From Candidatus Nomurabacteria bacterium RIFCSPHIGHO2_02_40_30 (GTDB lineage Bacteria > Patescibacteriota > Minisyncoccia > Phycocordibacterales > UBA9973): a DNA stretch of 64,000 nucleotides. The position numbers were made by a program, and so were the translations under genes. Within the stretch, counting starts at the first letter, position 1; every line of letters starts with the position of its first letter. The stretch lies in the NCBI GenBank assembly GCA_001785445.1, contig MFTV01000010.1, forward strand, positions 101,566 through 165,565. Reading direction: 5' to 3'. Below the pieces are notes generated by a model that was not told the DNA's origin, made no database searches, and saw only the letters and a list, made by a program, of their open reading frames with translations. Below are positions 14,458 through 61,420 of the stretch, piece after piece.

Positions 14458-15252
14458 ATGAAAAAGAGGAATGTTTTAAATTCTCCACGTCTCTTAGCGC
14501 TAAAAAGGCGCAAGCGAAGAACTGTTTTGAGTAAAATATTACTTTTATTAGTTGTACTTTTGGCAATCTTGGGAAGCCTTGCTTATATTTTTCGCATTCC
14601 TAGTTTAAATATTAAGTCGGTAGAAATAGATGGCACTAGAGTAATAGATGCAGATACTATTAGAGCGAATATAGAAAAAGAGATTGCCGGTAACTATCTC
14701 TGGATTTTACCAAAAACAAATATATTTTTGTATCCAAAAAGTAAAATTAAAGAGGAACTTAGTAAGAGTTTTAAGAGATTAAAGAATATAGATGTCTCTA
14801 CTTTAAATAATACTGTACTCAAAGTAACTGTCTTTGAAAGGGAAGCCAAATATTTGTGGTGTGAGACGGAGGAAAAATGCTACTTCATGGATGGAGACGG
14901 TTTTATTTTTGATGAGGCTCCGTATTTTTCCGGCGAGGTTTATTTTAGATTTTATGGTTCGAGTAACGGAGACTTTGTGAAGTTATTTCCATTTAAAAAA
15001 ATAATTGAAGATATGGGACTGAAGCCCATCGGGTTATCAATATTAGAAAACAGCAATGTTGAAATGTTTCTCTCCGGTAAAAGTAAGCCAAAAATAATCT
15101 TCAATGCGACTTCTGATTTTCAAAAAATAGCAGAAAACTTGCAGGCAGCCCTTGCCACCGAGCCACTACGCTCTGATTTTAAAAATAAATATTCATCTCT
15201 TTTGTACCTTGACTTGCGGTACGGAAATAAGGTCTACTTCAAGTTCAAATGA
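14458..15252 (+). CDS. FtsQ/DivIB-like cell-division protein (TM plus POTRA)
   Basis: N-terminal basic region and TM helix, then a POTRA-like block IKSVEIDGTRVIDADTI...LKVTVFEREAKYLW. Confidence 0.6.
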   Translation: MKKRNVLNSPRLLALKRRKRRTVLSKILLLLVVLLAILGSLAYIFRIPSLNIKSVEIDGTRVIDADTIRANIEKEIAGNYLWILPKTNIFLYPKSKIKEELSKSFKRLKNIDVSTLNNTVLKVTVFEREAKYLWCETEEKCYFMDGDGFIFDEAPYFSGEVYFRFYGSSNGDFVKLFPFKKIIEDMGLKPIGLSILENSNVEMFLSGKSKPKIIFNATSDFQKIAENLQAALATEPLRSDFKNKYSSLLYLDLRYGNKVYFKFK

Positions 15253-16208
15253 TTAACCTAGGGTTCTGGGGAGAAATTAAAAAGCCGATTTTCTGCCTTG
15301 CGCCGATGGCAGACGTCACCGACTGCGCTTTCAGGCAGATAATTGCGAAATATGGTAAACCGGATGTTTTTTGGACAGAATTTGTATCAGCAGATGGATT
15401 GTGTAGTGCTGGCAGAGAAAAACTTTTAGTTGATTTTATCTACAGCGAAAACGAAAGACCAATGGTAGCTCAAATTTTCGGATCTAAACCGGAAAACATA
15501 AAGAAAGCTTCGGAACTTTGTAGAGAGCTTGGTTTTGACGGAGTAGATATAAATATGGGATGCCCTGATAAATCTATCGAGAAGCAGTGCGCCGGCGCAG
15601 CTATGATGAAAAATCCTCAACTTGCTCGGGAAATTATTCGTGCGGCCAAAGAAGGCGCAGGTGATTTGCCAGTGTCTGTGAAAACTCGCATTGGTTACAA
15701 TAAAAATGAAATTGAAACTTGGATAAGGGAGCTGTTGTCGGAAGATATAGCGGCGCTTACGGTGCATTTGCGTACCCGTAAAGAAATGTCTAATGTTCCT
15801 GCGCACTGGGACTTGATGAAAAGAATAGTTCAAATTAGAAATGAAATGAAGAAAAAAACTTTAATACTAGGCAATGGCGATGTCTTAAATTTAGAAGATG
15901 CGAAAAGAAAAGTGGAGGAGACAGGCTGCGACGGAGTGATGCTCGGTAAAGCAATCTTTGGTAACCCGTGGTTGTTTGCTGAAAAAGTTCCATCTATTAA
16001 AGAGAAGCTCGAAGTCATGATAGAACACACCAAGCTTTTTGAAAAAATGCTGAGTGGGCATAAAAACTTCGCCATTATGAAAAAACATTACAAAGCATAT
16101 GTGAATGGTTTTGATGGGGCGAAAGAGCTTCGAGTGAAACTCATGGAAGCTGAGAATGCTCTTCAAGTAGAAAACATAGCTAATGATTTTTTAGGTAAAA
16201 TAGAGTAG
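15249..16208 (+). CDS. dus: tRNA-dihydrouridine synthase
   Basis: LAPMADVTD, DINMGCP and a TIM-barrel Dus pattern. Confidence 0.9.
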   Translation: MINLGFWGEIKKPIFCLAPMADVTDCAFRQIIAKYGKPDVFWTEFVSADGLCSAGREKLLVDFIYSENERPMVAQIFGSKPENIKKASELCRELGFDGVDINMGCPDKSIEKQCAGAAMMKNPQLAREIIRAAKEGAGDLPVSVKTRIGYNKNEIETWIRELLSEDIAALTVHLRTRKEMSNVPAHWDLMKRIVQIRNEMKKKTLILGNGDVLNLEDAKRKVEETGCDGVMLGKAIFGNPWLFAEKVPSIKEKLEVMIEHTKLFEKMLSGHKNFAIMKKHYKAYVNGFDGAKELRVKLMEAENALQVENIANDFLGKIE

Positions 16209-25495: not shown

Positions 25496-28429
25496 ATGAT
25501 TTCACGGATATATGTAATGCCTAAAGATAAGGGTACACGGGCAGATTCTTACCTTATTGACTCTAAATTGTCCTTAAAAGAACTCACGAAGCTGGCTAAT
25601 GCCCTTACGAATCCGATTCTAGAAAAATATTATATAAATGAACCCCTGAAAGTGGGGAATTTTTCTTATGCGATTGAAATAGGTTATAAACCGGGAGTAA
25701 CGGATAACGTAAGTCACACTGTTAAAGAAATTGCTACAGATTTACTTAACTTGAAAAAGCACACGGACTTTCAAGTATATACTTCCAAGATTCTTTTCAC
25801 TTCCGGCAATAAAGAAAGGACAGAAAAATTTGCTCTTGAATTGTATAATCCGCTTATTGAGCGAGCCAATATAGCGCAGATTAAAAACGGAAAAATAAAT
25901 TTTCCCAATAAAGCTCCAAAGGTAATTCTTGAAAAAAGAAAACTGGTTGTAAAAGTTCCGCTTAATGTTTCCGATGAAGAACTTATAAAGATAGGAACTT
26001 TGGGAATCAAAGAAGGGAATATTCGGCGCGGGCCGCTGGCGCTCGACTTAGCTTCAATGCACGCCATAAAAGAATACTTTGCCAAACTAAAAAGAACACC
26101 AACGGACATTGAGCTTGAAGCTTTGGCGCAGACATGGTCGGAACACTGCAAGCACACTATTTTTGCGAATCAGATAGATGATATACAAGAAGGGCTATAC
26201 AAGACTTATATAAAAGGAGCGACAAATCTTATCCGTAAACAAAAAAGAGAGAGAGGTCAGCAGGATTTTTGCGTTTCTGTTTTTTCTGATAATTCCGGTG
26301 GAATAATTTTTGACAAAGATTTCTTAATAACCCACAAAGTTGAAACACACAACTCTCCTTCTTTCTTAGATCCGTTTGGAGGAGCTATTACCGGCATTGT
26401 GGGAGTGAATCGCGACACGATAGGCTTCGGGCTGGGGGCTAAGCCAGTGGCTAATACTTACGGATTTTGTTTTGGCGAACCGGACGAAAAAAGGCATCTA
26501 TATTTAGATAAAGAACAAAAGCAAAAAATGCTCCTGCCAAAACGAATCATGGATGGTGTGATAAAAGGCATAAACGTTGGGGGGAACTGCTCTGGTATTC
26601 CGACTATTTCCGGATTTGTAAAATTTGACGAAAGATACAGAGGTAGGCCACTTGTGTTCGCCGGAACAGTAGGATTGATACCGAAAAAAATTGGAGCAAG
26701 ACTTTCTCATGAAAAAAAGGCAAAACCTAGGGACTGTGTCGTAATCATTGGGGGTAGAACAGGAGCAGATGGTATCCATGGAGCCACATTTTCTTCTGTT
26801 GCCACAGATTTTAATTCACCGGCCACGGCAGTGCAAATTGGTGACCCGATAACCCAGAAAAAGTTAAGTGATGCAATAATAAAAGAAGCCCGAGATATGA
26901 ATTTATATAACAGCATCACGGACATCGGTGGCGGTGGAATGTCTTCTTCGGTAGCAGAAATGGCTAAAGAGTCCGGCGGGGTTAAAGTTGATTTGGAAAA
27001 AGTTCCGCTAAAATATCCGGGGCTTCGGCCGTGGGAAATATGGATTTCAGAATCACAGGAACGCATGACTCTCGCTGTGCCGAAGAATAAAATAAAAAAA
27101 CTTTTCAAACTTTTGGAAAGTCGTGAAGTGGAAGCTACGGTAGTGGGAGAATTTACCAATTCCGGCAAGTGTGTGCTCTATTACAAAGGTAAAAAAATAA
27201 TGGACATGGACATGGAGTTCTTACATAACGGACTACCAAAGCATCATTTAAGAACCTCACCCCCGCCCGCGTTAGCAGACCTCCCCCTCTCCTTGGCAAG
27301 GAGAGGGGCTAGAGGTGAGGTATACACAAAAGATCTTGAGAATTTACTTGGAAGTAAAAATCTAAATGGATTTTCTTTCATCTCCGAACAATATGACCAC
27401 GAAGTGCAGGGATCATCTGTGCTAAAACCTCTTTCGGGTCCGGGACGTATCAACACTGACGCCCAAGTTTTCCGTCCAGTTTTAAATTCAAACAAAGGAG
27501 TTGTATTGTCATCTGCACTTTATCCTTCGTATGGAGACATCAGCACCTACGACATGGCTGCTTGTGCGCTTGACACTACTGTTCGAAACGCAGTTGCTTC
27601 TGGCGGCACTCTTTCTCACCTCGCTATATTAGACAACTTCTGTTGGTGCTCTTCGTATGACAAAACACGGCTATATCAGCTCGTAGAAGCTGTAAAAGCC
27701 TGTTATGACTACGCTGTGGGCTATGGCACCCCATTTATTTCTGGCAAGGACAGTATGTTTAATGATTTTAAGGGTTATGACGAGAAGGGTAATCCTGTGG
27801 CCATTTCTATCCCTCCGACGCTTCTAATATCTGCCATAGGGGTAGTGTCGGACTTTTATAAAGTTGTTTCGCCGGAATTCAAAAATGCGGGAGATATAAT
27901 ATATTTGCTAGGAGAAACTCATGATGAACTTGGAGCAAGTGAATACTATAAGATGCTTGGAGAAATTGAAAATAACCCCGCACCAGAGCAAGCTCGGTAC
28001 GGGGCAAGTGTTCCGAAAGTTAACTTAGAAAAAAATCTAAAAACATATCTGGCGCTGGAAAAAGCGATTCAAAAAGAATTGTTGAATTCTTCTCTTTCTG
28101 TAACTTCCGGAGGCTTCGGAATTGCATTGGCAAAAGCCTGTGTTGGCGGAATGCTCGGATGTAAAATAAATGTAGAAAGCATGTCTGCGGGCTCAAATTC
28201 GGCCATGGTGAAGCTTTTCTCTGAAAGCCAAGGGAGGGTATTGGTATCCGTACCTCCTAAAAATACAAGGGAATTTGAAAAAATATTTAAGGATATATCG
28301 AATGCCAGGCTCGGAACAGTTTCCAAAGACAACAAATTTATAATAACAGAAGATAATAAAAAAATAGTGGATTCGTCCGTAAAAAAGCTGTACGACATTT
28401 ATCATAAGTTTTCCAATTCAATGCAATGA
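25496..28429 (+). CDS. purL: phosphoribosylformylglycinamidine synthase, synthetase subunit with a fused PurS-like N-terminal domain (977 aa)
   Basis: Start trimmed to MISRIYV. Contains WSEHCKHTIF, ETHNSPS and the DxGGGG pattern. The ~190-aa N-terminus has LTNPILEKY and LYNPLIERA PurS-like repeats. Confidence 0.9.
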   Translation: MISRIYVMPKDKGTRADSYLIDSKLSLKELTKLANALTNPILEKYYINEPLKVGNFSYAIEIGYKPGVTDNVSHTVKEIATDLLNLKKHTDFQVYTSKILFTSGNKERTEKFALELYNPLIERANIAQIKNGKINFPNKAPKVILEKRKLVVKVPLNVSDEELIKIGTLGIKEGNIRRGPLALDLASMHAIKEYFAKLKRTPTDIELEALAQTWSEHCKHTIFANQIDDIQEGLYKTYIKGATNLIRKQKRERGQQDFCVSVFSDNSGGIIFDKDFLITHKVETHNSPSFLDPFGGAITGIVGVNRDTIGFGLGAKPVANTYGFCFGEPDEKRHLYLDKEQKQKMLLPKRIMDGVIKGINVGGNCSGIPTISGFVKFDERYRGRPLVFAGTVGLIPKKIGARLSHEKKAKPRDCVVIIGGRTGADGIHGATFSSVATDFNSPATAVQIGDPITQKKLSDAIIKEARDMNLYNSITDIGGGGMSSSVAEMAKESGGVKVDLEKVPLKYPGLRPWEIWISESQERMTLAVPKNKIKKLFKLLESREVEATVVGEFTNSGKCVLYYKGKKIMDMDMEFLHNGLPKHHLRTSPPPALADLPLSLARRGARGEVYTKDLENLLGSKNLNGFSFISEQYDHEVQGSSVLKPLSGPGRINTDAQVFRPVLNSNKGVVLSSALYPSYGDISTYDMAACALDTTVRNAVASGGTLSHLAILDNFCWCSSYDKTRLYQLVEAVKACYDYAVGYGTPFISGKDSMFNDFKGYDEKGNPVAISIPPTLLISAIGVVSDFYKVVSPEFKNAGDIIYLLGETHDELGASEYYKMLGEIENNPAPEQARYGASVPKVNLEKNLKTYLALEKAIQKELLNSSLSVTSGGFGIALAKACVGGMLGCKINVESMSAGSNSAMVKLFSESQGRVLVSVPPKNTREFEKIFKDISNARLGTVSKDNKFIITEDNKKIVDSSVKKLYDIYHKFSNSMQ
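27254..27321. repeat. GC-rich nested palindrome embedded in frame in purL
   Basis: Inner stem CCCCTCTCCTT/AAGGAGAGGGG (11 bp, 3-nt loop) and outer stem ACCTCAC/GTGAGGT. 45 of 68 nt are G+C. Confidence 0.85.
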
Positions 28430-30575: not shown

Positions 30576-31125
30576 AACGTCCAAAAAGACTAAATTAGCA
30601 CTTTTGGTTCACGAAGGAGGTACTCAAACTAATCTAAAAGCAATACGGGAGGCGATTGATAATGCTAGAATAAATGCTGAAATTTCTGCGGTAATTTCTG
30701 ATAGCCAAGATGCGACACCAATACTGGAGAGAGTGTCTCCAGACTATATATGTCTTGCTGGTTGGAAAAAAATTATTCCCGACGAAATAACTGAAAAATA
30801 CGCAAATAAAATACTGAACATACATCCAGGTTTAATTCCGGATATAGTGGACGGAAAAGTATTAAATCCTGACAATACCAAAGCTTTATGGAATAAGGGA
30901 ATGTACGGCAATAAAGCCATACAAAATTTCTTAGACCAAAAAGCCACTTACGCAGGCTCATCTCTCCATTTTTTAACTAACGAATTTGATTTTGGTCCGG
31001 TACTAGGAAAAACTTTTGAAAAAATTGAACCCGACGATACTGTGGAATCCTTATATGCTAGACTTAAGAAAAAAGAAAATGAACTTTATGTGGAAGTTTT
31101 AGAAAAATTATGCAAAACAAGTTAA
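30556..31125 (+). CDS. purN: phosphoribosylglycinamide formyltransferase (divergent)
   Basis: NIHPGLIP (catalytic Asn/His) and DFGPVL (catalytic Asp). The N-terminal SG-loop is atypical. Confidence 0.7.
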   Translation: MMFQKTKTSKKTKLALLVHEGGTQTNLKAIREAIDNARINAEISAVISDSQDATPILERVSPDYICLAGWKKIIPDEITEKYANKILNIHPGLIPDIVDGKVLNPDNTKALWNKGMYGNKAIQNFLDQKATYAGSSLHFLTNEFDFGPVLGKTFEKIEPDDTVESLYARLKKKENELYVEVLEKLCKTS

Positions 31126-32417
31126 AAATTTTAATAATTGGCGCTGGTGGGGGACGGGAGCATGCACTAGGCTGGAAAATAGCCCAGTCGGGAAGAGCGG
31201 GAGAATTATTTTTCGCCAGAGGTAATGCAGGTACAGCGCAGATTGGCACCAACTTGGATATAAAAGAGACAGATACATCAGCGCTTTCAAATTTTGCAAA
31301 AGAGGAAAAAATAGATATTACTTTGGTAGCATCAGATGATGCGCTAGCAGCTGGAGTGGTAGATGAATTCAGGCAAGCTGGTTTAAAAATCTGGGGCCCA
31401 ACAAAAATAGCATCGAAATTAGAATGGTCAAAAGCATTTGCTAAAGACTTTATGCAGAGACACGACTTGCCTACAGCAAAATTTAGAGTTTTCAATAATT
31501 TTGAAAAGGCAAACGAATACCTCAAAGAGCAACCATTGCCTATTGTAGTAAAAGCAGATGGTTTGGCTTTGGGTAAAGGCGTGGTGATTTGCCATAGTGT
31601 TGAAGAAGCATATGGAGCCCTAGAAAATATAATGGTAAAAAAGATATTCGCAGATTCAGGCAATACCGTAGTCATAGAAGAATTCCTAGTCGGACCAGAG
31701 ATCTCAATTCATGCGTTGTCAGATGGAAAAAATTATGATATTTTTCCTCCTTCGCAAGATCATAAGAGAATAGGTGAAAACGACATGGGACCAAATACTG
31801 CAGGCATGGGCACCATCGCTCCACTGCCATTTGTAGATGAAGAAATAATGAAAAAGATAGATAAGGACATAATCGCTCCCACCTTAGAAGCTATGAGAAA
31901 AGAAGGAACTCCTTTTGAAGGCATACTATATCCGAGCCTTATGCTCACTAAAGATGGTCCAAAGATTATAGAATTTAACGCACGCTTTGGTGACCCAGAA
32001 GCACAAACTTATATGAGGCTTTTAGATACTGATTTATTAGATATTATTGAGGCCTGTGTTGATAAAAAATTAAACAAGACAAAAATTAAATGGAAAAATA
32101 GCTTTGCCTGCAATATTGCGCTGGCCTCAGGCGGATACCCAGGAAACTATATAAAGGGTAAAATAATTTCTGGTATTGAAGAAGTTAAATTGCAAAAAGA
32201 TATAATAATTTTTCACGCTAACACAAAAGTCGAAGGAGAAAAATTAGTCACCAGTGGCGGACGAGTGCTCGGAATTTCAAGTGTTGGCGATACTCTTGTC
32301 GAGGCACTTGCTAAAGCCTACAAAGCTATAGAGAAAATCTCGTTTGAAGGGATGCAATACAGAAAAGATATAGGAAAGTCAGCTCTTGATTTGGAAAAAA
32401 CTAATTATCCCAATTAA
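31110..32417 (+). CDS. purD: phosphoribosylamine--glycine ligase
   Basis: ILIIGAGGREHAL and VVKADGLALGKGV within an ATP-grasp domain. Confidence 0.9.
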   Translation: MQNKLKILIIGAGGGREHALGWKIAQSGRAGELFFARGNAGTAQIGTNLDIKETDTSALSNFAKEEKIDITLVASDDALAAGVVDEFRQAGLKIWGPTKIASKLEWSKAFAKDFMQRHDLPTAKFRVFNNFEKANEYLKEQPLPIVVKADGLALGKGVVICHSVEEAYGALENIMVKKIFADSGNTVVIEEFLVGPEISIHALSDGKNYDIFPPSQDHKRIGENDMGPNTAGMGTIAPLPFVDEEIMKKIDKDIIAPTLEAMRKEGTPFEGILYPSLMLTKDGPKIIEFNARFGDPEAQTYMRLLDTDLLDIIEACVDKKLNKTKIKWKNSFACNIALASGGYPGNYIKGKIISGIEEVKLQKDIIIFHANTKVEGEKLVTSGGRVLGISSVGDTLVEALAKAYKAIEKISFEGMQYRKDIGKSALDLEKTNYPN

Positions 32418-38464: not shown

Positions 38465-38537
38465 TTATGAATCCCGTTAGAAATCAACTAACGGGAAATT
38501 AAAAGAGAAAATTATAAATGTTAAAATTTCTAACGGG

Positions 38538-39470
38538 ATGAATATACTAAAAGAAACAAATTTTAACAACTTGGGGAAAAAATATACTGGTAAAGTTAGA
38601 GATGTTTATATCCAGAATGACAAAATTATAATGGTTTCCACTGACAGATATTCCGCTTTTGACCGCAATCTGGCGCTCATTCCTTGTAAGGGACAAGTTT
38701 TAACTCAAGTTACTGATTTTTGGTTTAATCAAACTAAAGATATAGTACAAAATCACGTTATTGAAATACCAGACCCAAATACAGTAGTAGCTAAAAAATG
38801 CACCGTGTTGCCAGTGGAGATGGTAGTGCGCGGCTACATTACCGGAGTTACTGGAACTTCCACTTGGACTCTATACCAAAAGGGGCAGAGAGACTTCGGG
38901 GATTTTGTTTTGCCTGACGGAATGAAAAAAAATCAAAAACTGGATAAACCGGTCATAACTCCTACGACGAAACACGAAGCTCACGACAGGCCCTTGACTA
39001 GCAAAATTATTTTAGAAGAAAAAATGATGTCACCGGAGATTTGGCAAAAAATTTCTGATATCTCTTTGAAGCTTTTCGCCCGCGGGCAGGAAGTTGCCTT
39101 AAATAGGGGACTGATTCTGGTAGACACTAAATACGAATTTGGTTTAGATAAAAATAACGAGATAATGCTGATAGACGAGATTCATACGCCGGACTCTTCT
39201 AGGTACTGGCAGGCGGACTCATATAAAGGTAGAATTGAGCAAGGTTTAGAGCCAGAAAATTTTGATAAGGAGTTTCTGCGCTTGTGGTTTAAAGATAACT
39301 GCGACCCGTATAAAGATGAAAAACTTCCAGAAGCGCCAGTGGGGATGGTGACTGAACTTTCCCGAAGATATGTAAAAATTTGCGAGCAAATTACTGGAAT
39401 TCCTTTTCAAATGGAAAATGGAGACATCGGGAAGAGGATAGAGGATAATCTAAAAAAATACGCAATATAA
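38538..39470 (+). CDS. purC: SAICAR synthetase (long form)
   Basis: YTGKVRDVY and LILVDTKYEFG. Confidence 0.9.
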   Translation: MNILKETNFNNLGKKYTGKVRDVYIQNDKIIMVSTDRYSAFDRNLALIPCKGQVLTQVTDFWFNQTKDIVQNHVIEIPDPNTVVAKKCTVLPVEMVVRGYITGVTGTSTWTLYQKGQRDFGDFVLPDGMKKNQKLDKPVITPTTKHEAHDRPLTSKIILEEKMMSPEIWQKISDISLKLFARGQEVALNRGLILVDTKYEFGLDKNNEIMLIDEIHTPDSSRYWQADSYKGRIEQGLEPENFDKEFLRLWFKDNCDPYKDEKLPEAPVGMVTELSRRYVKICEQITGIPFQMENGDIGKRIEDNLKKYAI

Positions 39471-41943: not shown

Positions 41944-43674
41944 ATGATAAGAAAAATGTTCAAAAAAAAGAATAGTGACAAACACTTTTTCGTGGAGCCC
42001 GACGAGATTTTTCTTGACTCAAAAAATTTGCAAAATTTTGACCGTCAGCAATTCGAGGGACGAATAGAAAAATCAATACCTAAAAAGAACATTTTATTTC
42101 TTGGGATTTTATTCCTGCTTTTTTCTGTAACATTTGGCAGCCGTCTGATATATCTGCAAATCCAAAAAGGGGAAGCGTACTTGAAAAGAAGCGAAAATAA
42201 TATTTTAGACAAAGTTATTATCTTTACCGAGAGAGGAATAATCTATGACAGAAATAATGTAAAGCTGGCTTGGAACAGTAGAAATTCGGACGTTGGACGT
42301 CTGAATTCCGGACGTCCAACGTCCGAATCTGAAAACATGCCTATTCGCACATACATGTCACCCGGATTTTCTCATGTATTGGGTTACGTTAGTTACCCAG
42401 CCAAAGACAAGGACGGCAACTATTGGCAAACTGAATTTATGGGTAAAGACGGCTTAGAAAAAGAATACAACGACAAAATCAAAGGAGAAAATGGCTCAAA
42501 AATAATAGAAATAAATGCGTTAAAAGAAATAAATTCCGAAAATATCATAAACATTCCAAAACGAGGGAATAACTTGGTTACAAGTATTGACTCAAAAATT
42601 CAGAAAGAATTGTTTACTTTAATTAAAAATCTGGCAGAAAATAATAACTTTACCGGTGGAGCTGGGATAATAATGGATGTCAGAAATGGAGAAATACTGA
42701 CTTCTACCAGCTTCCCAGAATATAATTCCGAAACTTTATCTCTTGGAGAAGATATATCAGCGATCAATAAGTATATAAACGATAAAAGAAAATTCTTTAT
42801 GGATAGAACTGTTTCCGGACTTTATACTCCAGGCTCGATCGTTAAGCCATTTTTCGCGCTTGGAGCTCTAACTGAAGGCATTATTGACCAATATAAAAAA
42901 ATTCTTTCGACTGGTTCCATCTCAATCCCAAACCCTTATTTTAAAGACCAAAAGACTGTTTTCAAAGACTGGAGAGTAAACGGCTGGACAGATATGAGGG
43001 AGGCTTTGGCTGTTTCTTCTGATGTTTACTTTTACTCTATTGGCGGGGGCTACGGCGACCAAAGAGGCCTTGGTATAACCAATATTGGCAAGTATGCCAG
43101 CCTCTTCGGCATTGGAGAAGCAACTGGGATTGATTTGCCGGACGAAAAAAAGGGCACCATCCCGTCTCCGCAATGGAAAATAGAAAATTTTCAAGGAGAC
43201 CCTTGGCGCATTGGAGACACTTATCATACGGCTATCGGACAATATGGATTCCAAGTTACTCCGGTAGAAATAGTCCGCGCCGTAGCGGCTATAGCAAGTT
43301 ATGGCAAAATGTTAACTCCGCATTTTATACTCAATGACAAAGAAAAGGAAAATAAAACTTCTACAGTCAACTTAAAAAAAGAATACTTTGACATTGTGCG
43401 TGAAGGAATGAGAAAAGCAGTGACAACGGGCACGGCGACAATACTGAATGTGCCCTATGTGCATGTCGCTGTGAAAACCGGAACAGCAGAGCTCGGAGTG
43501 GCTAAAAATAAAGTGAACTCTTGGGTGATGGGCTTCTTGCCGTACGAAGACCCTAAGTACGCTTTCGTGATTATTATGGAGTCGGGCCCCTCGACCGGCG
43601 GCGCTAATGCGTCTTCTGTCATGCGAGGTCTCTTGGACTGGATGTACCTTAACACACCGGAATATTTCGATTAA
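41944..43674 (+). CDS. mrdA: penicillin-binding protein 2 (class B transpeptidase)
   Basis: N-terminal anchor, SxxK (GSIVKPF), SSD(VYF) and KTGTA. Confidence 0.85.
   Translation: MIRKMFKKKNSDKHFFVEPDEIFLDSKNLQNFDRQQFEGRIEKSIPKKNILFLGILFLLFSVTFGSRLIYLQIQKGEAYLKRSENNILDKVIIFTERGIIYDRNNVKLAWNSRNSDVGRLNSGRPTSESENMPIRTYMSPGFSHVLGYVSYPAKDKDGNYWQTEFMGKDGLEKEYNDKIKGENGSKIIEINALKEINSENIINIPKRGNNLVTSIDSKIQKELFTLIKNLAENNNFTGGAGIIMDVRNGEILTSTSFPEYNSETLSLGEDISAINKYINDKRKFFMDRTVSGLYTPGSIVKPFFALGALTEGIIDQYKKILSTGSISIPNPYFKDQKTVFKDWRVNGWTDMREALAVSSDVYFYSIGGGYGDQRGLGITNIGKYASLFGIGEATGIDLPDEKKGTIPSPQWKIENFQGDPWRIGDTYHTAIGQYGFQVTPVEIVRAVAAIASYGKMLTPHFILNDKEKENKTSTVNLKKEYFDIVREGMRKAVTTGTATILNVPYVHVAVKTGTAELGVAKNKVNSWVMGFLPYEDPKYAFVIIMESGPSTGGANASSVMRGLLDWMYLNTPEYFD
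42284..42328. repeat. perfect 18-bp inverted repeat (9-nt loop) embedded in frame in mrdA
   Basis: ATTCGGACGTTGGACGTC-tgaattccg-GACGTCCAACGTCCGAAT. The GGACGT unit occurs four times. Confidence 0.9.
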
Positions 43675-60392: not shown

Positions 60393-61364
60393 ATGACTTA
60401 CGATTTAATTATTATCGGGGGTGGACCGGCCGGCGCGGCGGCGGCAGTTTACGCTGCTCGTAAAAGACTACAGACGCTCTTTATTACCAGCGAGTGGGGC
60501 GGGCAAAGTGTAGTCTCCGAGCAAATTTACAACTGGATTGGCACCACTTCCCTCTCGGGAAATGAATTAGCAGAAAATTTTAAAAAGCATGTATTGGCAA
60601 ATGCCATAGGTACTGAAAACCTGAAAGAGGCTGAAGATTTGGGCTCTACGCTTTTAGTAAAAGAAGGTGAAAAAGTAATTTCTCTCACAAGGACAGTCCT
60701 TGAAAATTCCTTTGAAGTTACAACAGAAAATGGCGAGAAATTTTTAGCTAAGACAATTCTAATAACTAGCGGCAGCGGTAGAAGAAAACTTGAGGCAAAG
60801 AATGCCGACAGACTAGAACATAAAGGACTCACTTACTGCGCCTCTTGCGACGGGCCTCTTTTTACCGGTCAGGATGTCGCGGTAGTGGGCGGCGGGAACG
60901 CTGGGTTTGAAACTGCTGCCCAGCTTCTGGCCTATTGTAAATCCGTAACCCTTCTGCACCGTAGTGAGTCTTTTGATAAAGCTGATGAAATTACCGTTGA
61001 TAAAGTTTTGAAAAACCCAAAAATGAAAGCGGTAAAAAATGTGGAAATTTTGGAAATACAAGGCGATAAATTTGTCGAAGGAATAGTATATAAAGACAGA
61101 GCTACCAGCCAAGAAACAGAATTGAAGGTCTCCGGTATTTTCGTGGAAATCGGGCAAATTCCAAATACTAACTTTGTGAAAGATTTGGTTCCGCTTGACG
61201 AAATCGGACGTATAAAAATAAATCCGTTAAATCAAAAAACTTTAGTCCCCGGCATCTGGGCTGCCGGCGACTGCACTGATGTGCTCTATCATCAAAACAA
61301 CATCGCCGCCGGTGATGCCGTCCGCGCCCTCGAAGATATTTATTTGGCAATTCATACTAAATAG
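60393..61364 (+). CDS. trxB: thioredoxin-disulfide reductase
   Basis: Start trimmed to MTYDLIIIGGGPAG. Redox motif CASCDG and a second Rossmann motif VVGGGNAG. Confidence 0.9.
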   Translation: MTYDLIIIGGGPAGAAAAVYAARKRLQTLFITSEWGGQSVVSEQIYNWIGTTSLSGNELAENFKKHVLANAIGTENLKEAEDLGSTLLVKEGEKVISLTRTVLENSFEVTTENGEKFLAKTILITSGSGRRKLEAKNADRLEHKGLTYCASCDGPLFTGQDVAVVGGGNAGFETAAQLLAYCKSVTLLHRSESFDKADEITVDKVLKNPKMKAVKNVEILEIQGDKFVEGIVYKDRATSQETELKVSGIFVEIGQIPNTNFVKDLVPLDEIGRIKINPLNQKTLVPGIWAAGDCTDVLYHQNNIAAGDAVRALEDIYLAIHTK

Positions 61365-61396
61365 TTACGTAATCTATTACGTAATACATTACGTAA
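61365..61396. promoter_or_regulatory. three TTACGTAA octamers spaced by 4 nt
   Basis: TTACGTAA-tcta-TTACGTAA-taca-TTACGTAA-CCAA. Same 32-nt architecture as 45898-45929. Confidence 0.7.
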
Positions 61397-61420
61397 CCAA
61401 ATACTTTTCCACAGATTTAA

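What the first reader, a model, noticed from the sequence alone, without database searches (positions are those of the whole stretch)
27254..27321. GC-rich nested palindrome inserted in frame in the PurL inter-domain linker
This 68-nt segment has 45 G+C (66%) in a gene that is otherwise AT-rich.

It contains two stems:
- a perfect 11-bp inner stem, CCCCTCTCCTT (27284-27294) with AAGGAGAGGGG (27298-27308), and a 3-nt loop
- an outer 7-bp stem, ACCTCAC (27254-27260) with GTGAGGT (27315-27321)

It is translated in frame as TSPPPALADLPLSLARRGARGEVY. This lies between conserved PurL blocks (...FLHNGLPKHH and TKDLENLLGS...EQYDHEVQG), in the tolerant linker between the two halves of the enzyme.

The properties match a selfish palindromic element that has colonised a coding sequence, as Rickettsia palindromic elements do. 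A second, unrelated example sits in mrdA (42284-42328).
Basis: seen in the sequence. Interest (0 to 1): 0.65.

Follow-up and report, generated by a model that had tools for sequence, protein, structure and literature searches.

The report
BoxC-type palindromic repeat inside PurL
The GC-rich nested palindrome in this Nomurabacteria PurL gene is a copy of the pan-bacterial BoxC/"triplex-motif" repeat, reported as always intergenic in E. coli K-12 MG1655, that here sits in frame in a protein linker, as related copies do in many other genes of these tiny genomes.

Summary
Window 27254-27321 is a nested palindrome with a 12-bp inner and an 8-bp outer stem, in frame in the inter-half linker of PurL. 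It is identical in several independent assemblies of a Candidatus Nomurabacteria species.

It is not a clean 23-codon insertion. The ancestral linker is about 19 aa, and the element replaced most of it (net +5 aa).

The element belongs to a known family: BoxC, also called PIT or TMECO. Its layout is pyrimidine block, loop, purine block, loop, mirror purine block, and it shares core words with the E. coli copies. Here it also carries a 5' arm that makes terminal inverted repeats.

Copies about 90% identical lie in frame in other genes of related genomes:
- the purN-purD junction, where the element fuses the two genes
- the GuaA linker
- Dus
- PurQ

At least 40% of 120 close PurL orthologs carry a palindrome-type peptide in this linker, at differing boundaries and orientations. 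Stems are conserved at synonymous sites (81% against 35% in the flanks).

The best reading is a DNA-level dispersed repeat tolerated as a flexible linker. How it spreads is unknown.

I rate it a new variant of a known kind, of moderate interest.

The parts
25496..28429 (+). PurL-type FGAM synthase gene (977 aa plus stop) that hosts the element
   Evidence: ORF and translation. Pfam AIRS, AIRS_C and FGAR-AT_linker. 100% identical to P0001 and 68-76% identical to Nomurabacteria/Paceibacterota PurL.
27254..27321 (+). Whole element, from one terminal inverted repeat to the other (68 nt). Translated in frame as TSPPPALADLPLSLARRGARGEV.
   Evidence: Termini ACCTCACC...GGTGAGGT are shared by copies in L201, L203, L205, L209 and L003.
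27254..27261 (+). 5' outer arm ACCTCACC, the complement of the third block. It belongs to the element, not to the native T-S-P codons.
   Evidence: Baseline orthologs encode T-S-P with other codons (AGT CCG, TCT CCG). In L007, L010, L206 and L207 the arm lies at different linker positions.
27262..27283 (+). Spacer with a weak mini-hairpin (GC-GTTA-GC, 27269-27276). Relatives have 4-7-bp mini-hairpins of unrelated sequence at this position.
   Evidence: Fold. Comparison with L201, L203, L205 and Richelia L092.
27284..27294 (+). Pyrimidine block Y: CCCCTCTCCTT
27295..27297 (+). Loop 1 (GGC). It varies among relatives (GCC, GAC, ATC).
27298..27308 (+). Purine block R1: AAGGAGAGGGG, which pairs with Y
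27309..27311 (+). Loop 2 (CTA). It is TTA in L203, as in E. coli type A.
27312..27322 (+). Purine block R2: GAGGTGAGGTA. It is the mirror of R1 (10 of 11 purine-motif triads allowed), and 27314-27321 also forms the 3' outer arm.
   Evidence: Triad script
31077..31165 (+). Empty site for comparison: the purN stop / purD start overlap. In L003 and L010 a copy of the same element family occupies this junction and fuses the two genes.

Best explanation
The segment is a copy of a short, non-autonomous, GC-rich palindromic DNA repeat of the BoxC / PIT / 'triplex motif' family.

**Architecture (shown).** The core is a pyrimidine block, loop, purine block, loop, then a mirror purine block. This subfamily adds a 5' arm, giving 8-10-bp terminal inverted repeats, and a small internal hairpin.

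**Location (shown).**
- It lies in frame in the surface linker joining the two halves of PurL and replaces most of the ~19-aa ancestral linker.
- It is fixed in this Nomurabacteria species.
- Copies about 90% identical lie in other genes and gene junctions of related genomes.
- Its stems are held constant at the nucleotide level while loops, spacers and flanking synonymous sites have diverged.

**History and mechanism (inferred).**
- The element arrived by a DNA-level insertion or illegitimate-recombination event, with loss of adjacent native codons.
- It persists because it is open in the frame used and encodes a harmless Pro/Gly/Arg/Ser-rich flexible peptide at a domain boundary.
- In these gene-dense genomes such boundaries and gene junctions are nearly the only places where a copy is not lethal.
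- The mechanism of spread is unknown. It could be a trans-acting enzyme or structure-induced replication/repair template switching between copies.
- No benefit to PurL needs to be assumed.
For: - **Structure and significance:**
- **Ancestral linker:** the FLH-to-QYDHEV spacing is 57-58 aa in most of the 53 related loci where both anchors were found, down to 47% identity. The window has 63.
- **Family identity:**
  - The core words CCCTCTCC / GGAGAGGG / GGTGAGG are those of the 23 E. coli MG1655 TMECO copies.
  - The three-block geometry gives 10/11 allowed triads with 3-nt loops. It is 11/11 in L201 and 9/9 in L205, L209 and L003, compared with 9/9 in E. coli.
  - The motif occurs in many phyla, in E. 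coli at a median of 14 places per genome, and in viral contigs.
- **Dispersal:**
  - The L209 PurL copy and the L003 purN-purD copy are 54/60 identical.
  - The L010 purN-purD and GuaA copies are 45/50 identical, on one contig.
  - Genome-specific subfamilies occur in L205 and L208.
- **Empty versus filled sites:**
- **Independent events in the PurL linker:**
  - At least 7 combinations of boundary, orientation and stem type occur.
  - 48 of 120 orthologs are flagged by peptide pattern, scattered on the tree.
- **Nucleotide-level constraint:** third-codon identity is 65/80 in the element against 741/2118 in the flanks.
- **Coding location:** 24 of 27 homopyrimidine-stem hairpins in 1.32 Mb of related loci lie in long ORFs, against 7 of 29 in other low-GC genomes.
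- **Linker position:** PDB PurL alignments.
Against: - Only one copy was seen in ~79 kb of this genome, so multi-copy status in the host genome itself is unproven.
- No target-site duplication and no candidate transposase were found, so mobility is inferred from distribution only.
- The strict published TMECO pattern is not matched; more than 4 substitutions are needed.
- WIN, L201, L203 and L205 share the same left boundary. They could be one old insertion kept intact by selection, which would favour a functional reading.
- The very high occupancy of this one linker (>= 40%) exceeds what simple tolerance obviously predicts.
Confidence: 0.7

Rival explanations
1. The hairpin (or triplex) is a host-beneficial nucleic-acid structure kept by selection. 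It could be an mRNA hairpin that pauses ribosomes at the domain boundary to help co-translational folding, or one that stabilises or segments the long pur-operon transcript.
For: - Stems are frozen at synonymous sites while loops vary.
- Mini-hairpins of unrelated sequence are kept at the same position in WIN, L201, L203 and L205.
- Copies lie at domain boundaries or gene junctions of multi-domain enzymes: PurL, purN-purD, GuaA.
- The PurL linker is occupied in >= 40% of orthologs.
Against: - Most orthologs, and all distant lineages, do without it.
- Both orientations occur.
- Unrelated palindrome families occupy the same linkers.
- The same family is intergenic in E. coli, with no promoter, terminator or expression effect reported.
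- There is no Rfam match.
- Location at boundaries is equally predicted by tolerance.
Confidence: 0.17
2. The palindrome arose in place, by template-switch ('quasi-palindrome') mutation or by protein-level selection for a Pro/Gly-rich linker. Its resemblance to other sequences would then be convergent.
For: - Linkers are often Pro/Gly-rich.
- The net length change is small (+5 aa).
- Several unrelated palindromes occur in the same linker.
Against: - 58-68-nt copies that are 84-90% identical, including termini and loop-2 spacers, occur in different genes and genomes.
- Identical codons are used where synonymous sites are otherwise saturated.
- The core words are shared with E. coli BoxC.
Confidence: 0.04
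3. The segment is an assembly or chimera artefact.
For: Hairpins can cause mis-assembly. One cluster member (P0122) is a truncated 503-aa fragment.
Against: - Identical sequence appears in independent ENA, JGI, NCBI and Logan assemblies.
- One variant was seen on 75 contigs.
- The reading frame is intact across the segment.
Confidence: 0.01

Closest known systems
BoxC / PIT (potential intrastrand triplex) elements / TMECO 'triplex motif' of E. coli and other bacteria (Holder et al. 2015, PMC4666352; earlier work as cited there)
   Same: - Same three-block layout: Y, loop, R1, short loop, mirror R2.
- Same core words: CCCTCTCC, GGAGAGGG, GGTGAGG.
- Stems conserved and loops variable.
- Loop 2 is TTA in the relative L203, as in E. 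coli type A.
- Paired or palindromic forms exist.
- No link to a known transposase.
- Associated with local small deletions.
   Different: - Here the element is in frame inside genes, whereas it is 'always intergenic' in E. coli MG1655.
- Stems end in T-A pairs, so the strict consensus is not matched.
- It carries a 5' arm, giving terminal inverted repeats, and an internal mini-hairpin.
- The host is an AT-rich, ~39% GC Patescibacteria genome.
- Copy density is low.
Rickettsia palindromic elements (RPE)
   Same: - Palindromic repeats inserted in frame in unrelated housekeeping genes of a reduced genome.
- Translated as extra peptide segments compatible with protein function (review PMC10969869).
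   Different: - RPEs are ~150 bp, fall into ten families and each encodes a conserved peptide.
- This element is 50-68 nt, GC-rich, of the BoxC type and found across many phyla.
- No sequence relationship was tested or is expected.
REP/BIME elements and REPINs mobilised by RAYT transposases
   Same: Short GC-rich imperfect palindromes, dispersed, often in inverted pairs.
   Different: - REPs are extragenic and carry a GTAG or CGTC tag at one end (PMC3733652 abstract). No such tag occurs at the base of either stem here.
- No RAYT gene was looked for.
MITEs that create in-frame fusions (intragenic ERIC and similar; review PMC10969869)
   Same: Terminal inverted repeats, non-autonomous, can fuse with or extend host ORFs.
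   Different: - No target-site duplication.
- No parent insertion sequence known.
- Much shorter than typical MITEs.

Membership tests
BoxC / PIT / G+C-rich intrastrand triplex motif (ITxF criteria) | Three consecutive blocks: Y, R1 (hairpin partner) and R2 (mirror of R1). Stems 6-15 nt with at most 1 mismatch, loops 1-6 nt, triads of the purine motif. | tested here: met
   Y CCCCTCTCCTT / GGC / R1 AAGGAGAGGGG / CTA / R2 GAGGTGAGGTA, 10 of 11 triads allowed. Criteria taken.
BoxC / PIT / TMECO (strict E. coli pattern) | Matches CCCTCNCCC N3-6 GGGNGAGGG N3 GGGNGAGGG | tested here: not met
   no match with up to 4 substitutions for the window copy. L010 copies match at 3 substitutions; L205, L209 and L003 at 4.
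BoxC / PIT / TMECO | Shared core sequence words with described copies | tested here: met
   CCCTCTCC, GGAGAGGG and GGTGAGG are present in the window and in Table 1 of PMC4666352.
BoxC / PIT / TMECO | Dispersed in several copies in the genome | tested here: inconclusive
   1 copy in ~79 kb of this genome. Related genomes have 2-3 copies within 23 kb: L010, L205, L208.
BoxC / PIT / TMECO | Intergenic location | tested here: not met
   In frame in a 977-aa ORF. 24 of 27 related copies lie in long ORFs.
BoxC / PIT / TMECO | Single strand folds into an intrastrand triplex in vitro | not testable with these tools
   Needs CD or NMR on an oligonucleotide of 27284-27322.
Rickettsia palindromic elements | ~150-bp element belonging to one of the ten RPE sequence families | tested here: not met
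   Length is 68 nt against ~150 bp. Sequence comparison with RPEs was not done.
Rickettsia palindromic elements | In-frame insertion in unrelated protein-coding genes | tested here: met
   PurL, purN-purD, GuaA, Dus, PurQ and a clamp-loader-like gene.
REP / REPIN (RAYT-mobilised) | GTAG or CGTC tag at one end of the palindrome | tested here: not met
   The sequence at the stem bases is ACCT... and CCCC....
REP / REPIN (RAYT-mobilised) | Cognate RAYT (Y1 transposase) gene in the genome | not tested
   Window proteins were not screened; the whole genome was not available.
MITE | Terminal inverted repeats | tested here: met
   ACCTCACC(C) ... (G)GGTGAGGT in seven copies.
MITE | Target-site duplication flanking the element | tested here: not met
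   Flanks of seven copies share no direct repeat. Insertions are accompanied by loss of native sequence.

The most novel reading that the evidence does not exclude
BoxC-type elements may be actively propagating inside Patescibacteria genomes and landing preferentially at inter-domain linkers and gene junctions. There they would rewrite linkers and even fuse adjacent genes (purN-purD). A 30-year-old 'function-unknown' intergenic repeat of E. coli would then be a driver of protein-architecture change in ultra-small genomes. The PurL inter-half linker would be a true integration hotspot, with at least 7 independent events, rather than merely a tolerant site.
Probability: 0.3. Interest if true: 0.7.

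Novelty: new variant of a known kind. Interest (0 to 1): 0.5.

Why it matters
BoxC/PIT/triplex-motif repeats have been known since the 1990s, but neither their function nor their mode of spread is understood. They are described as intergenic.

These Patescibacteria data show the same family translated in frame at domain boundaries, fusing genes, and conserved at the nucleotide level. They also provide many matched filled and empty sites. That gives a natural data set for working out how the family inserts: boundaries, accompanying deletions and orientation.

The data add a second clear case, after Rickettsia RPEs, of palindromic repeats remodelling proteins in reduced genomes.

There is a practical point for annotators. 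Pro/Gly-rich 'TSP...PLSL.RRG..GEV' or 'PAPLL.KERV' peptides in CPR proteins are repeat-derived, not lineage-specific motifs.

Tried and rejected
- **Rfam.** An E-value-threshold search of 27100-27480 gave only chance-level hits.
- **AlphaFold2.** The PurL model from a 40-sequence alignment had mean pLDDT 47 and pTM 0.32. It is unusable for placing the insert, so I relied on PDB sequence alignments instead.
- **Literature.** Searches for in-frame palindromes in Patescibacteria gave only CRISPR mentions.
- **Copies in this genome.** There were none in the window and none in ~15 kb of flanking DNA recovered from other assemblies.
- **Target-site duplications.** None were seen.
- **Native T-S-P hypothesis.** I considered that ACCTCACC might simply be the native T-S-P codons. 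I rejected this because baseline orthologs use other codons and the arm moves with the element.
- **Strict TMECO regex.** Not matched.
- **G-quadruplex reading (Kaplan et al., PMC5100583).** The window copy has only GG tracts in two of the four runs, so I did not pursue it.
- **NJ tree.** It is only a rough guide. The claim of independent events rests on boundaries, orientations and subfamilies, not on the tree.
Full report
**1. The observation**

The sequence at 27254-27321 is as described. The repeat finder gives these arms:
- inner arms of 12 nt: CCCCTCTCCTTG (27284-27295) and CAAGGAGAGGGG (27297-27308)
- outer arms of 8 nt: ACCTCACC (27254-27261) and GGTGAGGT (27314-27321)

As RNA, 27245-27330 folds at -34.1 kcal/mol, with z = -3.85, and none of 200 shuffles folds as well. 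The inner palindrome is not expected by chance in this 38.7% GC window.

The segment lies in frame in a 977-aa PurL with AIRS, AIRS_C and FGAR-AT linker domains. Its closest relatives are PurL of Candidatus Nomurabacteria / Paceibacterota.

It is not an artefact:
- An independent assembly matches 8,416 bp with one mismatch.
- Three further assemblies match the window ends exactly.
- All eight full-length variants in the 90% cluster, one seen on 75 contigs, have the same linker peptide.

**2. Insertion or native linker?**

In 120 close orthologs, the stretch between FLHNGLPK and TKxLExLL is usually 23 aa. That comprises about 4 conserved residues and a ~19-aa linker of the form P-Yxxxx-P-EP-KLPK-GxSR.

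In 53 metagenomic relatives down to 47% identity, the FLH-to-QYDHEV spacing is almost always 57-58 aa. The window has 63. The element therefore replaced most of the native linker, for a net gain of 5 aa.

Baseline orthologs encode T-S-P with other codons. The ACCTC[AT]CC arm travels with the element to different linker positions in L007, L010, L206 and L207. The arm is therefore part of the element.

Alignment to solved PurL structures places the site between the first AIRS_C half and the second half of the enzyme. The AlphaFold model was too poor to use.

**3. What family is it?**

Element-bearing orthologs share a DNA layout:
- outer arm ACCTCACCC
- a mini-hairpin of variable sequence
- CCCCTCTCCTT, loop, AAGGAGAGGGG
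- a 3-5-nt loop
- GGGGTGAGGT

Matches fell in Planctomycetota, Chloroflexota, Cyanobacteria, Bacteroidota, Proteobacteria, Verrucomicrobiota and others, in loci of 36-73% GC, often in several copies. A Richelia copy has the same three-part layout as the window copy.

E. coli genomes hold a median of 14 places that match a hand-written 50-nt consensus of the motif.

The literature identifies this as BoxC, later called the PIT element and then the TMECO 'triplex motif': CCCTCNCCC N3-6 GGGNGAGGG N3 GGGNGAGGG. According to that literature, it:
- forms an intrastrand purine-motif triplex as single-stranded DNA in vitro
- is not shown to do so in vivo
- has no promoter or terminator activity
- is not linked to transposons
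- is associated with local instability
- is 'always located intergenically' in E. coli MG1655

A script shows that the window copy keeps the three-block geometry: Y CCCCTCTCCTT / GGC / R1 AAGGAGAGGGG / CTA / R2 GAGGTGAGGTA, with 10 of 11 allowed triads. The third block mirrors the second in all three stem subfamilies found in these genomes.

The strict E. coli pattern is not matched. This is therefore a related subfamily, not a canonical TMECO. Rfam has nothing here.

**4. Is it a dispersed element?**

Yes in related genomes:
- The L209 PurL copy is 54/60 identical to a copy at the purN-purD junction of L003.
- Two copies on one contig (L010 purN-purD and GuaA) are 45/50 identical, including loop and spacer.
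- L205 and L208 have genome-specific subfamilies in PurL, Dus, PurQ and a clamp-loader-like gene.

Empty sites exist. In the window and in L001, L004, L007 and L026, purN ends with a stop that overlaps or abuts the purD start. In L003 and L010 the element replaces that junction and fuses the two genes into one ORF. The GuaA linker is empty in L003 and L008, holds a BoxC-like copy in L010, and holds an unrelated palindrome in L007.

Of 27 homopyrimidine-stem hairpins in 1.32 Mb of related loci, 24 lie in long open frames. In other low-GC genomes the figure is 7 of 29.

In this genome itself I found only one copy in about 79 kb.

**5. The PurL linker as a hotspot**

At least 48 of 120 orthologs carry a palindrome-type peptide in this linker, flagged by a peptide-pattern regex. 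They are interleaved on a rough tree with the 23-aa baseline state.

At the DNA level there are at least seven combinations of left boundary, orientation and stem type. The right boundary is always just before Y-T-K. Other palindrome families also occur in the linker; P0025 and P0030 are examples.

**6. Constraint**

I compared WIN, L201, L203 and L205, whose PurL proteins are 71-78% identical. Third-codon positions at identical Leu, Val, Ser, Pro, Thr, Ala, Gly and Arg residues agree in 741 of 2,118 flanking comparisons (35%) but in 65 of 80 within the element (81%). Loops and the mini-hairpin differ.

The stems are therefore kept at the nucleotide level, either by selection on the element or by recent copying from a conserved pool.

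**7. Interpretation**

Shown:
- a BoxC-type repeat in frame in a tolerant linker
- fixed in the species
- belonging to a family with near-identical copies at non-homologous sites

Inferred:
- arrival by a DNA-level insertion with an accompanying deletion
- persistence as a harmless flexible peptide
- spread by an unknown mechanism

The main rival is a useful mRNA or DNA structure at domain boundaries. It is not excluded, but several points weaken it:
- most lineages lack the element
- both orientations occur
- unrelated palindromes occupy the same sites
- studies in E. coli were negative

**8. Novelty**

Both kinds are known: BoxC/PIT/TMECO as a repeat family, and in-frame palindromic elements such as RPEs. 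The new points are the in-frame, domain-boundary and gene-fusing occurrence of this family in Patescibacteria, and the composite architecture. I found no report of this in the held library.

I rate it a new variant of a known kind, with interest 0.5.

Noticed in passing
window 42284-42328: The mrdA palindrome (18-bp arms ATTCGGACGTTGGACGTC / GACGTCCAACGTCCGAAT) is in frame and adds 8 aa relative to the L004 ortholog. The same core occurs inside the PurL N-terminal domain in L007 (3172-3218) and, decayed, in L004 (10153). It is a second, separate in-frame palindrome family.
   Followed up: partly
L003 15371-17275; L010 16808-18745; window 31077-31165: purN and purD are fused into one ORF by a BoxC-like element in two related genomes. 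In the window they are separate, overlapping ORFs (the empty site).
   Followed up: yes
L004 16107-16148 and 22803-22825; L010 10144-10170; L009 6326-6361: A third palindrome family, ACTTGGAGGC-CTT-GCCTCCAAGT, lies in frame in PurD, mrdA and the PurL N-terminus. Its peptide (LPPSGG..TSK) also appears in the PurL linkers of P0025 and P0030.
   Followed up: partly
L002 4727-4753; L008 14897-14925; L009 20617-20643: A fourth family, CCAGATAGCGC...GCGCTATCTGG, occurs once in frame in the PurL C-terminus and twice in intergenic DNA.
   Followed up: no
L007 GuaA linker (within 14645-15691): A different GC palindrome (CCCGCCTCG...CGAGGCGGG) occupies the same GuaA inter-domain linker that holds a BoxC-like copy in L010. 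The linker is empty in L003 and L008.
   Followed up: partly
Some contigs hold 5 copies within 3-7 kb. Phages could be vectors, or these contigs may be host fragments.
   Followed up: no
L160 6629-7083; L177 1370-1400; L197 6316-6345: Apparent in-frame BoxC-like copies lie in long ORFs of non-Patescibacteria genomes, for example two in a 773-aa ORF of a Cytophagales MAG. Coding copies are therefore not exclusive to Patescibacteria.
   Followed up: no
window 45898-45929; 61364-61397; 50838-50871; 38466-38544: Other AT-rich palindromes in the window were not examined. They include a perfect 16+16 palindrome (TTACATAATACATTAC / GTAATGTATTATGTAA) and a pair of 19-nt arms 41 nt apart.
   Followed up: no
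L332 15471-21170 (about 0.6-6 kb beyond the window's 3' end): Just past the window's 3' end lies a defence-like and mobile cluster: a HinfI-type restriction enzyme, an N6/N4 methyltransferase, a LexA-like S24 peptidase, a ThsB-TIR protein, a caspase-like peptidase and a serine recombinase.
   Followed up: no
L331 1047-1067: Another GC-rich 8-bp hairpin (CCCTGAGG-CAAGA-CCTCAGGG), preceded by a direct repeat of CCCTGAGGCAA, lies inside a TP_methylase gene about 8 kb upstream of the window start in the same genome.
   Followed up: no
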